Positions 1 through 6,975 of a stretch of DNA of 64,000 nucleotides are shown in pieces. The number at the start of each line of letters is the position of its first letter. Position 1 is the first letter of the stretch. The position numbers and the translations under genes were made by a program. This DNA is from Octopus vulgaris (taxonomy: Eukaryota), in the NCBI GenBank assembly GCA_951406725.2, contig OX597814.1, forward strand, positions 162,626,001 through 162,690,000, read 5' to 3'. The notes beneath the pieces are model-generated. The model saw nothing but the letters and a program-made list of their open reading frames with translations. It was not told where the DNA came from and searched no databases.

Positions 1-1442
1 CGTCCAGTGTTGTTGGACACTGGACAGATGGTCCTGTTAAATTGCTTGGAGTTTGGTTTGGTTCAGACTCCCAGACGGAGAAAAATTGGAGCGAGGTAGT
101 GACCAAGGTAGAAGCCATAGTTCGGGAGTGGTCCGGAAGGCATCTTTCCTTGAAAGGGAGGGCGGAGGTGGTACAGGTGTTTATAGCATCTGTAATCACC
201 TATCGCCTGACTGTCGTGCCTTGCCCCGATTTGTGGCTAAGCAAGTTGGATCGACTCCTTTTCCGCTTTTTGTGGAAGGGAGGAAAGCCACTTGTAAGGC
301 GCTCCGTGTGTTGCCAGGAACCACTAAAGGGTGGGCTGGGGATGCCTTGGTTAATGATGCGCAGGCATGCGCTGAGACTGAGACATCTCTGGTTTCACCT
401 GGAAGGTGATAAGGTGTGGAGTCCGCTGGCAGATAATTTCTTCCCGCAACCGGACTCTATGGAGAGATTTAAACCCGGTTTCATTAAAAGACGGAACCTG
501 ACTTTATGGCAGAAAGAGTGCCGACAGGCACTCTGGCTGATCCACAAGATAGGCAAAGCCGGCTGCGGGAATACCACCTCGACATTTTATAGAAGGATGG
601 TAGAGGCAAAAAATGACGACGTCCTAAGAGGGTCTCTGGGGTTCGATGAGGATCAACTATCCGACCTGTTTAAGAAGACTTTCAAGCCGGGGTATTTGGA
701 CAATTACCAAAAATCCCTGACTTGGCAGTGCTATAGGAATGCTCTACCTGTTCGCGATAAGTTATATAGGCATGGAATGTCAGTGCCACCGACATGTCCA
801 AGATGTGGGTTGGACGATGAAACCGTCCAGCACGCTTTTGTACATTGTCAGGAGCTGTCAGGCTTAATAAGTTACGTAGAACACGTGTTGTCGCATCTGG
901 GACGAGTACAGCTATCGGCTGGTTCTATAATAAAGATGATACCGCCAGCTGGACTCTCAAAGGAAGGTGAGGCTTGTTTTCACTGTACGGTGGCAGTACT
1001 GAAAGAGTGTGTGTGGAGAACTAGATTGGAAGGTTTGGTGTCAGGAACCTTTGTCTCTGGATATGGTATGTTAAAATACTTCAGATACCATCTAAAGAGC
1101 AAGATGGATTTAGAGAAGAGGAACCTGACACAGAAAAAGTATGTGAATCGATGGAAGGATGTGATAAAAAAGGTGGGTGTGAGTAACCCTGCTTGGTCAT
1201 CATGAAGGGAGAAAATAGTCTCTGGGCTCTTAGGCTGTCGGGTAAGAATCCTGACTGTGATATACCTAGCTGGCCAAAATCATTTTTAATTTTTAAAAAA
1301 AAAGGAGAAAAGTAAAGTCTAGTATCATAATCAATAATCAACATATGTAAATATCAAACGAACAACGTAAACTTTTTGTAATTATGTTTTGTATTGTAAT
1401 GTACTATCTCTGTAAGATTTTTATAATCATAATAAAGATTTA
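1..1442 (+). mobile_element. L1/Tx1-clade LINE, 3' portion (ORF2 end plus AT-rich 3' UTR ending in AATAAA)
   Basis: ORF2 as above. The UTR ends ...atcatAATAAAgattta (AATAAA 1431-1436) and abuts the ribozyme array with no poly(A) tail. Confidence 0.85.
3..1205 (+). CDS. C-terminal part of L1/Tx1-clade non-LTR retrotransposon ORF2 (RT thumb region plus zf-RVT CCHC finger); 5'-partial
   Basis: The frame is open from position 3 to TGA 1203-1205. Motifs typical of L1/Tx1 ORF2: LGVWFG, W..RHLSLKGRA, FLWKG, GGLGMP, and the zinc finger W..YRNALP.RD...CPRC...ETVQHAFVHC. Confidence 0.9.
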   Translation, partial: SSVVGHWTDGPVKLLGVWFGSDSQTEKNWSEVVTKVEAIVREWSGRHLSLKGRAEVVQVFIASVITYRLTVVPCPDLWLSKLDRLLFRFLWKGGKPLVRRSVCCQEPLKGGLGMPWLMMRRHALRLRHLWFHLEGDKVWSPLADNFFPQPDSMERFKPGFIKRRNLTLWQKECRQALWLIHKIGKAGCGNTTSTFYRRMVEAKNDDVLRGSLGFDEDQLSDLFKKTFKPGYLDNYQKSLTWQCYRNALPVRDKLYRHGMSVPPTCPRCGLDDETVQHAFVHCQELSGLISYVEHVLSHLGRVQLSAGSIIKMIPPAGLSKEGEACFHCTVAVLKECVWRTRLEGLVSGTFVSGYGMLKYFRYHLKSKMDLEKRNLTQKKYVNRWKDVIKKVGVSNPAWSS

Positions 1443-1450
1443 GGAAGCGA

Positions 1451-1528
1451 CACCTACTGGCTGGCTACGCTGCATTGAAAAGGGGCAATACCCCGAAACG
1501 CGTCTGTAGCTGCCGGTCAAGTAGTGTG
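1451..1528 (+). ncRNA. Type I hammerhead ribozyme (U3-A8 core variant), first copy of the array
   Basis: Stem I GCTGCA (1469-1474) pairs with TGTAGC (1505-1510). Core TTGAAAA 1475-1481; stem II GGGG-CAATA-CCCC; GAAA 1495-1498; palindromic stem III ACGCGT; GTC cleavage triplet ending at C1504. Extended stem I TGGCTGGC/GCCGGTCA. Confidence 0.85.
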
Positions 1529-2377
1529 GAGCGACTGACCTCCCTTGTTCGAAGGTTATATGGATACAGTTTGTGTATCAAATAGCTAACTTAAGGCGAT
1601 GGCCTCATGGAGCTAATAAGCGAACAGCTTTTTTCTTATTTTTATAAGAATGCCATATTAGTATGGCGATAACTATTAAAAGGGGCAATACTCCGAAACG
1701 CGTCTGTAGCTGCCGGTCAAGTAGTGTGGAGCGACTGACCTCCCTTGTTCGAAGGTTATATGGATACAGTTTGTGTATCAAATAGCTAACTTAAGGCGAT
1801 AGCCTCATGGAGCTAATAAGCGGACAGCTTTTTTCTTATTTTTATAAGAATGCCATATTAGTATGGCGATAACTATTATTTTCCGGGAACGCTGCCGCTG
1901 TTCTCTTTTAGAAGACTTAGTTATTTTAATATTTCTATTATTGAAAACAAGTGGATGTATTCCACCGAAACTAGGTAAATAAAACCATCGAACAGAGATT
2001 GTCGGAAGCGACATCTACTGGCTGGCTACGCTGCATTGAAAAAGAAGGGGGCAATACTCCGAAACGCGTCTGTAGCTGCCGGTCAAGTAGTGTGGAGCGA
2101 CTGACCTCCTTGTTCGAAGGTTATATGGATACAGTTTGTGTATCAAATAGCTAACTTAAGGCGATAGCCTCATGGAGCTAATAAGCGGACAGCTTTTTTC
2201 TTATTTTTATAAGAATGCCATATTAGTATGGCGATAACTATTATTTTCCGGGAACGCTGCCGCTGTTCTCTTTTAGAGAGACTTAGTTATTTTAATATTT
2301 CTATTATTGAAAACAAGTGGATGTATTCCACCGAAACTAGGTAAATAAAACCATCGAACAGAGATTGTCGGAAGCGA

Positions 2378-3905
2378 CACCTACTGGCTGGCTACGCTGC
2401 ATTGAAAAGGGGCAATACTCCGAAACGCGTCTGTAGCTGCCGGTCAAGTAGTGTGGAGCGACTGACCTCCCTTGTTCGAAGGTTATATGGATACAGTTTG
2501 TGTATCAAATAGCTAACTTAAGGCGATAGCCTCATGGAGCTAATAAGCGGACAGCTTTTTTCTTATTTTTATAAGAATGCCATATTAGTATGGCGATAAC
2601 TATTATTTTCCGGGAACGCTGCCGCTGTTCTCTTTTAGAGAGACTTAGTTATTTTAATATTTCTATTATTGAAAACAAGTGGATGTATTCCACCGAAACT
2701 AGGTAAATAAAACCATCGAACAGAGATTGTCGGAAGCGACACCTACTGGCTGGCTACGCTGCATTGAAAAGGGGCAATACTCCGAAACGCGTCTGTAGCT
2801 GCCGGTCAAGTAGTGTGGAGCGACTGACCTCCCTTGTTCGAAGGTTATATGGATACAGTTTGTGTATCAAATAGCTAACTTAAGGCGATAGCCTCATGGA
2901 GCTAATAAGCGGACAGCTTTTTCTTATTTTTTTATAAGAATGCCATATTAGTATGGCGATAACTATTATTTTCCGGGAACGCTGCCGCTGTTCTCTTTTA
3001 GAAGACTTAGTTATTTTAATATTTCTATTATTGAAAACAAGTGGATGTATTCCACCGAAACTAGGTAAATAAAACCATCGAACAGAGATTGTCGGAAGCG
3101 ACACCTACTGGCTGGCTACGCTGCATTGAAAAGGGGCAATACTCCGAAACGCGTCTGTAGCTGCCGGTCAAGTAGTGTGGAGCGACTGACCTCCCTTGTT
3201 CGAAAGGTTATATGGATACAGTTTGTTTATCAAATAGCTAACTTAAGGCGATAGCCTCATGGAGCTAATAAGCGGACAGCTTTTTTCTTATTTTTATAAG
3301 AATGCCATATTAGTATGGCGATAACTATTATTTTCCGGGAACGCTGCCGCTGTTCTCTTTTAGAGAGACTTAGTTATTTTAATATTTCTATTATTAGAAA
3401 ACAAGTGGATGTATTCCACCGAAACTAGGTAAATAAAACCATCGAACAGAGATTGTCGGAAGCGACACCTACTGGCTGGCTACGCTGCATTGAAAAGGGG
3501 CAATACTCCGAAACGCGTCTGTAGCTGCCGGTCAAGTAGTGTGGAGCGACTGACCTCCCTTGTTCGAAGGTTATATGGATACAGTTTGTGTATCAAATAG
3601 CTAACTTAAGGCGATAGCCTCATGGAGCTAATAAGCGGACAGCTTTTTCTTATTTTTATAAGAATGCCATATTAGTATGGCGATAACTATTATTTTCCGG
3701 GAACGCTGCCGCTGTTCTCTTTTAGAAGACTTAGTTATTTTAATATTTCTATTATTGAAAACAAGTGGATGTATTCCACCGAAACTAGGTAAATAAAACC
3801 ATCGAACAGAGATTGTCGGAAGCGACACCTACTGGCTGGCTACGCTGCATTGAAAAGGGGCAATACTCCGAAACGCGTCTGTAGCTGCCGGTCAAGTAGT
3901 GTGGA
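2378..3905 (+). ncRNA. Five further intact hammerhead copies (predicted cleavage after 2431, 2793, 3155, 3519, 3879)
   Basis: Each reads gctgcaTTGAAAAggggcaatactccGAAAcgcgTCtgtagc. Copies cleaving at 1704 (5'-truncated), 2070 and 4239 carry indels in the core or stem II. Confidence 0.8.
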
Positions 3906-4405
3906 GCGACTGACCTCCCTTGTTCGAAGGTTATATGGATACAGTTTGTGTATCAAATAGCTAACTTAAGGCGATAGCCTCATGGAGCTAATAAGCGGAC
4001 AGCTTTTTCTTATTTTTATAAGAATGCCATAGTATGGCGATAACTGTATTTTCCGGGAACGCTGCCGCTGTTCTCTTTTAGAAGACTTAGTTATTTTAAT
4101 ATTTCTATTATTGAAAACAAAGTGGATGTATTCCACCGAAACTAGGTAAATAAAACCATCGAACAGAGATTGTCATTAGCTGTCACCTACTGGCTGGCTA
4201 CGCTGCATTGAAAGGGGCAATACTTCTCCGAAACGCGTCTGTAGCTGCCGGTCGAAGTAGTGTGGAGCGAACTGACCTCCTTGTTCGAAGGTTGTATATG
4301 GATACAGTTTGTGTATCAAATAGCTAACTTAAGGCGATAGCCTCATGGAGCTAATAAGCGGACAGCTTTTTTCTTATAAGAATGCCATATTAGTATGGCG
4401 ATAAC

Positions 4406-6360
<1,955 letters not shown>

Positions 6361-6375
6361 TAAATTCATCGAAAA

Positions 6376-6580
6376 CCGGTGATTGCCGTACGTCTAGAAG
6401 ACAGGCAAATACCTAGAAACTGCAGTCCAAGTGGTAATACTTAGGTGTGACGAGAGAGATGACCTCTCTTGCAAATGTCTACAAGAGCACAGAAAGTGTG
6501 CTCTGTATGCAAGCCAGCTGGAGACAATGATCTCCTGGGGCTAAAAGCTACAGTAACACCCACCCTTAGTGGTTAGCCAT
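6376..6580 (+). ncRNA. Diverged hammerhead-like plus multi-hairpin module at the 3' end of LINE copy 2
   Basis: CT(A)GAAGA 6394-6401; stem II AGG-CAAATA-CCT; GAAA 6416-6419; palindrome ACTGCAGT; GTC at 6425-6427; outer stem ATTGCC/GGTAAT. Downstream hairpins match the array unit in order. Confidence 0.6.
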
Positions 6581-6600
6581 ATATATGCATATATATATTC

Positions 6601-6975
6601 TCTCTTTCTCTTTTATTTGTTTGTCATTTGACTGCGGCCATGCTGGAGCACCGCCTTTAGTCGAGCCCAGTACTTATTCTATTGTAAGCCCAGTACTTAT
6701 TCTATCGGTCTCTTTTGCCGAACCGCTAAGTGATGGGGACGTAAACACACCAGCATCGGTTGTCAAGCAATGCTAGGGGGACAAACACAGACACACAAAC
6801 ACACATATATATATACGACAGGCTTCTTTCAGTTTCCGTCTACCAAATCCACTCACAAGGCATTGGTCGGCCCGAGGCTATAGCAGAAGACACTTGCCCA
6901 AGATACCACGCAGTGGGACTGAACCCGCAACCATGTGGTTGGTTAGCAAGCTACTTACCACACAGCCATTCATGC

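What the first reader, a model, noticed from the sequence alone, without database searches (positions are those of the whole stretch)
6376..6580. Structure conserved by covariation between the two LINE 3' modules
Seen (copy 1 unit vs copy 2): stem II GGGG-caata-CYCC vs AGG-caaata-CCT; stem III palindrome ACGCGT vs ACTGCAGT; core U3-A8 vs C3-G8-like; GGAG-cgactgac-CTCC vs GAGAG-agatgac-CTCTC; GATAC-agtttgt-GTATC vs AGAGCAC-agaaagt-GTGCTCT; AGGC-gata-GCCT vs GGAGA-caatga-TCTCC; GCT-aata-AGC vs GCT-aaa-AGC; a terminal hairpin then taactat vs tagccat. Stems change sequence while pairing, order and loop words (TGAC, AG...GT) persist. Inference: beyond the hammerhead there is a ~150-nt conserved structured RNA domain, plausibly the RT recognition or circularisation signal, which I cannot assign to a known family.
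Basis: partly seen in the sequence, partly recalled or inferred. Interest (0 to 1): 0.75.

Follow-up and report, generated by a model that had tools for sequence, protein, structure and literature searches.

The report
Conserved fold of a ribozyme retroelement
Most of the hairpins are real, but they belong to a small, predicted self-cutting jumping RNA (a retrozyme) into which the neighbouring LINE has inserted, and their conserved fold likely marks where a Penelope-type reverse transcriptase grips that RNA and starts copying it.

Summary
6376-6580 is a 3'-truncated, error-laden copy of a ~355-nt non-LTR retrozyme unit (type I hammerhead), not a LINE 3' module. The Tx1-type LINE inserts into these units: copy 1 has a 17-bp target-site duplication, and sister copies hit U2 snRNA +1. 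Across 12 subfamilies (47-92% identity) hairpins H2, H3 and a terminal hairpin H5 covary on structure-blind alignments: 12 of 22 pairs change on both sides, and a tree-aware null gives about 5.9 vs 0.6 events (P about 0.003). H1 does not covary in a fixed register. New here: an 11-14-bp covarying helix joins the H1-H2 linker to the sequence just before the unit start, so it needs unit-length, multimeric or circular RNA. Insertions end at two fixed sites, the first 9-21 nt behind H5, as in Penelope internal initiation. No Rfam match. Best reading: a binding/initiation platform for a Penelope-type RT (inferred; partner not found). The scan has already reported this retrozyme, its Tx1 targeting and a conserved fold on other DNA of this genome.

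The parts
6379..6441 (+). Type I hammerhead of copy 2 (family B1): extended stem I, stem II, palindromic stem III, predicted cut after 6427; 2 extra letters in the core are private to this copy
6452..6470 (+). H1 hairpin; folds in most families but with slipping register; competes with P0
6466..6477 (+). Downstream strand of long-range helix P0; its partner strand (just before the unit start) is absent here, replaced by the Tx1 insertion
6485..6503 (+). H2: 6-bp stem, 5-6-nt loop starting with G; covaries
6512..6542 (+). H3: upper 5-6-bp stem covaries; lower stem undecided
6536..6552 (+).
6574..6580 (+). 5' arm of terminal hairpin H5; the 3' arm is missing in this copy
5400..6367 (+). 3' part of Tx1/L1-type LINE copy 2 (indel-laden), ending at the presumed +1 of the retrozyme unit (6368)
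1..1442 (+). 3' part of Tx1/L1-type LINE copy 1 (ORF2 end with zf-RVT)
1443..1459 (+). 17-bp target-site duplication of LINE copy 1 (other copy at L108:6073-6089)
1443..4407 (+). Family-A retrozyme tandem array, 362-bp units, ending in (TA)n
2313..2325 (+). U1/U2-type PSE-like motif of one family-A unit (about -57 from the Tx1 site at 2370)
2349..2363 (+). Upstream strand of P0 in a family-A unit; pairs with about 2470-2485

Best explanation
The region is the non-catalytic body of a non-LTR retrozyme RNA whose hairpins H2, H3, H5 and long-range helix P0 covary between subfamilies, and this fold likely serves as the site where a Penelope-type reverse transcriptase binds the unit-length, probably circular, RNA and starts copying just behind H5. 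Steps: (1) transcription from an internal U1/U2-type promoter reads through tandem units (inferred); (2) type I hammerheads, probably as dimers, cut out monomers (inferred from intact cores and literature); (3) P0 and stem I close the monomer into a two-lobed shape, hammerhead on one side and hairpin string on the other, which a host ligase would circularise (P0 covariation shown; folding and circle inferred); (4) a Penelope-type RNP nicks (TA)n DNA and starts cDNA at two fixed internal sites (fixed ends and (TA)n flanks shown; enzyme inferred). The Tx1 LINE is a later, site-specific insertion at the unit's presumed +1 (TSD shown for copy 1).
For: Structure: blind MAFFT alignment of 12 subfamily medoids, H2+H3+H5 90.1% paired, 12 of 22 pairs changed on both sides, 0 of 500 shuffles as high, slid controls 32-47%. 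Tree-aware null: about 5.9 compensatory events vs 0.57, P 0.0025 using the lowest observed count; 81% vs 35% of changes keep pairing. RNAalifold picks H2, upper H3, H5 unaided. P0: duplex -13 to -23 kcal/mol in 8 of 8 families, 8 of 40320 family permutations as low as the true pairing; RNAalifold finds it unaided; 82% paired, 0 of 500 shuffles. Ends: 22 of 23 (A), 36 of 39 (C), 33 of 36 (D) 3' ends fall in two narrow zones, the first 9-21 nt behind H5; 5' ends are scattered. Precedent: in the anole Penelope element RT starts internally at two sites downstream of the hammerhead, and the proposed binding motif lies in that region (PMC11167929). LINE is an insertion. PSE-like motif at -54 to -64, shared with U1 and U2 upstream regions.
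Against: No autonomous partner found: CM R2 hits no pLTR in 49 Penelope-containing loci, and Penelope ORF pieces lie near only 6 of 170 module-centred loci with no fixed geometry. The young 781-aa Penelope family has a minimal hammerhead and no such domain. All 12 subfamilies come from one genome, and no single pair was tested with R-scape. Downstream covariation is weaker than in the hammerhead (score 0.32 vs 0.84). P0 is weak in the family-F copy used (25 of 500 shuffles as good), and families A and F are two columns out of register in the blind alignment. Loci were chosen as best full-length hits, which biases the end counts. Cleavage, circles and binding are untested.
Confidence: 0.55

Rival explanations
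1. The fold is mainly a circularisation and stability scaffold: P0 and stem I hold the cut ends together for an RtcB-type ligase and the hairpins protect the circle; RT start sites are set by short local sequence only.
For: P0 can form only when the region before the unit start and the H1-H2 linker are in one molecule. Animal retrozyme circles are described as highly self-paired and ligated by RtcB in vitro (PMC7229834).
Against: General stability does not need fixed stem lengths, G-starting loops and many invariant letters in H2, H3, H5 (31 invariant columns of 167), nor the fixed distance from H5 to the first end.
Confidence: 0.25
2. The hairpins serve snRNA-type biogenesis: a Pol II transcript from the PSE whose 3' end is made behind H5, bound by host snRNP-like proteins.
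For: PSE-like motif shared with U1/U2 at the right distance; newt satellite 2 is reported to use an snRNA promoter (cited in PMC2220036).
Against: P0 needs sequence upstream of +1, so the selected RNA is at least unit length; copies run through +1 and the cut site; no Rfam snRNA match.
Confidence: 0.1
3. One reading: the module is the 3' UTR of the Tx1 LINE and the signal for its own RT.
For: 55 of 108 distinct ORF2 ends examined are followed by a module.
Against: 17-bp TSD and array on both sides of copy 1; tandem LINE copies are separated only by the TSD; 53 of 108 ends are followed by U2 (3), the next LINE (16) or other DNA (34); 25 of 30 best copies lack a LINE; inverted, partial-tandem copies in (TA)n are a Penelope footprint (PMC8557442).
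Confidence: 0.03
4. The hairpins are unselected by-products of fold-back template switching and shared ancestry.
For: Penelope-type insertion makes inverted segments; H1 and the GCT/AGC hairpin show little covariation.
Against: Pairing is kept through independent changes across lineages only about 50% identical.
Confidence: 0.07

Closest known systems
Metazoan non-LTR retrozymes (Cervera and de la Pena 2020, PMC7229834: passages and Discussion read; Li, Clavereau and Pollet, bioRxiv 10.64898/2026.07.22.740005: part 1 of 5 and passages read)
   Same: Non-coding tandem units of 350-362 bp, one type I hammerhead per unit, high copy number; mussel units are 350-390 bp; Penelope mobilisation proposed.
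   Different: In the parts read, structure outside the hammerhead is given as minimum-energy folds only; here specific helices (H2, H3, H5, P0) are supported by covariation. Unlike the Xenopus case, no sequence link to a pLTR was found. Expression and circles are not shown here.
Penelope-like element pLTR, PAc of Anolis (Frangieh et al. 2024, PMC11167929: parts 1-2 of 4 read; Craig et al. 2021, PMC8557442: passages)
   Same: Hammerhead upstream of two internal RT start sites, a tail between them, AT-rich targets, inverted 5'-truncated copies.
   Different: No ORF; tail is about 45-60 nt rather than 30-40; the domain was not found in 49 Penelope-containing loci of this genome.
Newt satellite 2 (Coats et al. 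1994, seen only as a citation in PMC2220036)
   Same: Hammerhead tandem repeat with an internal snRNA-type promoter.
   Different: No sequence comparison was possible; the promoter here is inferred from motif and position only.
Target-specific Tx1-clade LINEs: Tx1L in Tx1D, Keno in U2, Tx1-Mar (PMC4494074: passages)
   Same: Tx1-type LINE inserting at a fixed site of another multicopy element or U2.
   Different: Target is the presumed transcription start of retrozymes and of U2. This concerns the neighbour, not the domain itself.

Membership tests
Type I hammerhead ribozyme | Core C3-U4-G5-A6-N7-G8-A9 / G12-A13-A14, A15.1-U16.1, H17 | tested here: met
   Canonical in B3, D, G; U3-A8 in A and F (variant described in PMC4209133); C at position 4 in B1 and E. 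The window copy has 2 extra letters.
Type I hammerhead ribozyme | Stem I open, stem II closed, short palindromic stem III | tested here: met
   Stems I and II 96% paired, 14 of 14 pairs change on both sides; stem III palindromic or nearly so in the consensuses.
Type I hammerhead ribozyme | Self-cleavage | not testable with these tools
   Needs an in vitro assay.
Type I hammerhead ribozyme | Match to an Rfam hammerhead model | tested here: not met
   No match at gathering score or E<=10.
Non-LTR retrozyme | Non-coding tandem units of 170-400 bp, one type I hammerhead each, dispersed in many copies | tested here: met
   Units of 352-362 bp; 1140-2840 first-look candidates per family query (not copy numbers).
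Non-LTR retrozyme | Expressed as linear and circular RNA | tested here: inconclusive
   No run on record as RNA; contigs cannot tell circle from tandem array or DNA.
Penelope-mobilised element | Partial tandems, inverted 5'-truncated copies, two fixed 3' ends with a tail, (TA)n targets | tested here: met
Penelope-mobilised element | Homology to the pLTR of an autonomous element | tested here: not met
   No hit in 49 Penelope-containing loci; only the best 150 of 6136 GIY-YIG candidates were scored, so a partner may be missed.
Tx1 LINE 3' UTR | Always follows ORF2 and lies inside the TSD | tested here: not met
Any Rfam family for the downstream domain | Covariance-model match | tested here: not met
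   Best hit on a clean copy was 13.9 bits, E 4.5, against a gathering score of 50; none on the window copies.

The most novel reading that the evidence does not exclude
These retrozymes carry a conserved, previously undescribed RNA module (P0 spine plus H2-H3-H5) that a Penelope RT recognises in trans on a circular template without any sequence likeness to its own pLTR, fixing two initiation sites: the retrozyme equivalent of a SINE tail, built from structure alone.
Probability: 0.3. Interest if true: 0.7.

Novelty: new member of a known kind. Interest (0 to 1): 0.45.

Why it matters
How animal retrozymes are recognised and copied by an RT is proposed but not shown in the papers read (PMC7229834 Discussion; bioRxiv 10.64898/2026.07.22.740005). 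A family with 12 diverged subfamilies, helices pinned by covariation and two exact insertion end points gives ready-made mutants and compensatory rescues for the existing in vitro Penelope assay. P0 is also genomic evidence that selection acts on the whole unit-length RNA rather than on the ribozyme alone. The class of element is known, and the LINE framing of the finding is wrong.

Tried and rejected
Rfam: no match for the window at gathering score or for module copies at E<=10. A second hammerhead-like motif near the end of the A unit was considered and dropped: it coincides with the PSE-like motif and lacks the core in D and E. Octamer reading of the H1-H2 linker dropped: it changes in step with its P0 partner. 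U6-type promoter: U6 upstream motif differs. Penelope partner: not found. Metagenome pattern scan: 0 matches. Sequencing runs: no RNA holder listed; contigs from four runs guessed to be RNA join unit end to unit start, which cannot tell circle from tandem array or DNA; zero contig cover at 6442-6477 in three runs is no proof of absence. Model R1 had H5 off by one column and was not used (R2 is). The own genome cannot be searched with an RNA model, so more distant subfamilies may be missed. Period figures of 344 (B1) and 374 (D) in my early notes were wrong; tandem periods are 352-362. A genome-wide or loci-wide count of the copy-2-specific words was not done. Literature: eight searches listed no paper describing this family or a covarying retrozyme domain; supplements of PMC7229834 were not opened and those of the bioRxiv preprint are closed, and either could hold cephalopod sequences; Repbase/Dfam were not available; PMC308520 is not held.

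Full report
Setting. The window lies in a 2.8-Gb animal assembly (G000:C1); earlier scan notes call it an octopus, which I did not verify. 6376-6580 follows the 3' end of a Tx1/L1-type LINE (ORF2 end with zf-RVT). 'Copy 1' is the 362-bp tandem array at 1443-4407.

The modules are the LINE's target. Upstream of the window the same array continues, and LINE copy 1 sits inside it with a 17-bp duplication on both sides (L108:6073-6089 and window 1443-1459). Tandem LINE copies are separated by that duplication alone. The lineage of copy 2 also inserts at the first base of U2 snRNA genes with a 14-bp duplication. Of 108 distinct ORF2 ends examined (from the 150 scored hits, of which I fetched part), 55 are followed by a module, 3 by U2, 16 by the next LINE and 34 by other DNA. 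Of the 30 best genomic matches to copy 2, 25 have no LINE in front. A TSD for copy 2 itself could not be checked.

What the module is. It is a 352-362-bp non-coding unit with a type I hammerhead: stems I and II are 96% paired and all 14 pairs change on both sides across 11 subfamily representatives. Cores are canonical or carry U3-A8 or C4 variants; U3-A8 and palindromic stem III are described in PMC4209133 (passages). Copies occur as partial tandems and inverted 5'-truncated pairs in (TA)n, the Penelope footprint (PMC8557442 passages). This fits a non-LTR retrozyme (PMC7229834; bioRxiv 10.64898/2026.07.22.740005). A 10-letter motif 54-64 bases before the Tx1 site matches the upstream regions of U1 and U2 genes at 9-10 of 10 letters in A, B1, B2, C, D and E; F matches at -51 and G at an offset that could not be fixed. 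I read it as an snRNA-type promoter (inferred; newt precedent seen only as a citation).

Copy 2 is a poor witness. Against the 35-copy B1 consensus it has many small indels between 6393 and 6510. Its LINE part has 26-28 gap openings in 967 bp, against 2 between independent copies. Contigs of three runs leave out its inserted letters at 6393-6395 and 6501-6508. The copy stops in the 5' arm of the terminal hairpin H5, which is what 'tagccat' is. It still folds better than shuffles (z -2.9; a clean copy -4.2).

Testing the domain. From 264 full-length copies I kept 12 subfamily consensuses (clusters of 2-51 copies; singleton clusters and two small clusters were left out, and one of three related G clusters was used); identities run from 47 to 92%. 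On a sequence-only alignment of representative copies, H2, H3 and H5 are 90.1% paired, 12 of 22 pairs change on both sides, 0 of 500 shuffles reach this and slid controls give 32-47%. That shuffle ignores relatedness, so I also moved substitutions at random along the tree: H2+upper H3+H5 show about 5.9 compensatory events against 0.57 (P 0.0025 with the lowest observed count), and 81% of changes keep pairing against 35%. Singly, upper H3 is significant for double changes (P 0.016); H2 and H5 only for the share of changes that keep pairing (P 0.0005, 0.005). H1 folds in most single sequences but slips in register and fails the test. The lower stem of H3 and the extended GCT/AGC hairpin exclude each other, have one compensatory event each and are undecided. 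Rfam has nothing.

Circular folds of full units pair the 3' strand of H1 and the H1-H2 linker with the 10-30 bases just before the unit start. This helix, P0, is 11-14 bp, -13 to -23 kcal/mol in 8 of 8 families; at most 2 of 500 shuffles match it in seven families and 25 of 500 in F; own-family pairing is as low as in only 8 of 40320 permutations. RNAalifold finds it on a blind alignment, with 82% pairing although A and F are two columns out of register. P0 explains why the pyrimidine strand of H1 is conserved while H1 slips. It cannot form in a short transcript from +1 to H5; it needs a cut-to-cut monomer, a multimer or a circle. In copy 2 the partner strand is gone, replaced by the LINE.

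Likely function. 3' ends of copies fall in two zones (A 22 of 23, C 36 of 39, D 33 of 36), the first 9-21 nt behind H5, while 5' ends are scattered with no pile at the cut site (the script stopped on an error after these tables; B1, E, F, G had no tandem unit to measure against; loci are best hits, so counts are biased). In the anole Penelope element RT starts internally at two sites downstream of the hammerhead, the tail is the stretch between them, and the binding motif is proposed in that region (PMC11167929). The domain occupies the same position, so the most likely role is an RT binding and initiation platform on unit-length RNA. Against this, the fold is absent from 49 Penelope-containing loci and no ORF adjoins modules in a fixed way. 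A circularisation or stability scaffold is the main rival, and both may hold. Shown: homology, covariation, target-site relation, fixed ends. Inferred: promoter, cleavage, circles, RT identity, binding.

Novelty. The class is known. Eight literature searches listed no description of this family or of covarying non-catalytic helices in animal retrozymes; supplements were not seen. The scan has already noted this retrozyme family, the Tx1 targeting and a conserved fold on other DNA of this genome; I reached the target-site and promoter reading before the first look-up, and none of the short notes shown names P0. Verdict: new member of a known kind, interest 0.45.

Noticed in passing
L093:65 and 5622; L083, L085, L090: The Tx1 lineage of copy 2 inserts at +1 of U2 snRNA genes with a 14-bp TSD and at the matching position of at least five retrozyme subfamilies with different local sequences, suggesting position-guided targeting behind a PSE.
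   Followed up: partly
L273:1010; L223:2310-2861: One Tx1 end is followed by a short U1-like 5' sequence, and a LINE ORF1-like frame lies beside a U1 gene; possible U1-targeting sister family.
   Followed up: no
L091-L092, L095-L099: Head-to-tail arrays of full-length Tx1 (about 5.3 kb period) separated only by a short duplicated target.
   Followed up: partly
window 2630-2650 and equivalents in B2, C, D, E: A further short hairpin lies just before the second fixed 3' end in most families, and the PSE-like motif itself forms the 5' arm of a hairpin; not tested for covariation.
   Followed up: no
L207:1278-6065: Young Penelope-like family with a 781-aa RT + GIY-YIG frame, minimal hammerheads in both pLTRs and a tail of about 35 nt; candidate source of RT.
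   Followed up: partly
L106:3180-3433; L344:1199-1393: Subfamily copies in which stem III and part of stem I, or H1, are deleted while H2-H5 stay intact; the L106 form occurs twice, hinting that the ribozyme may be dispensable for mobility.
   Followed up: no
window 1630-1680: The first family-A unit after the LINE is shortened (200-bp spacing instead of 362), joining the first fixed end directly to the hammerhead core.
   Followed up: no
window 6590-6960: A common SINE-like repeat follows copy 2 and recurs many times in the window.
   Followed up: no
window 4400-5400: Long TA and TC runs with scrambled LINE pieces; this part of the assembly looks low in quality.
   Followed up: partly
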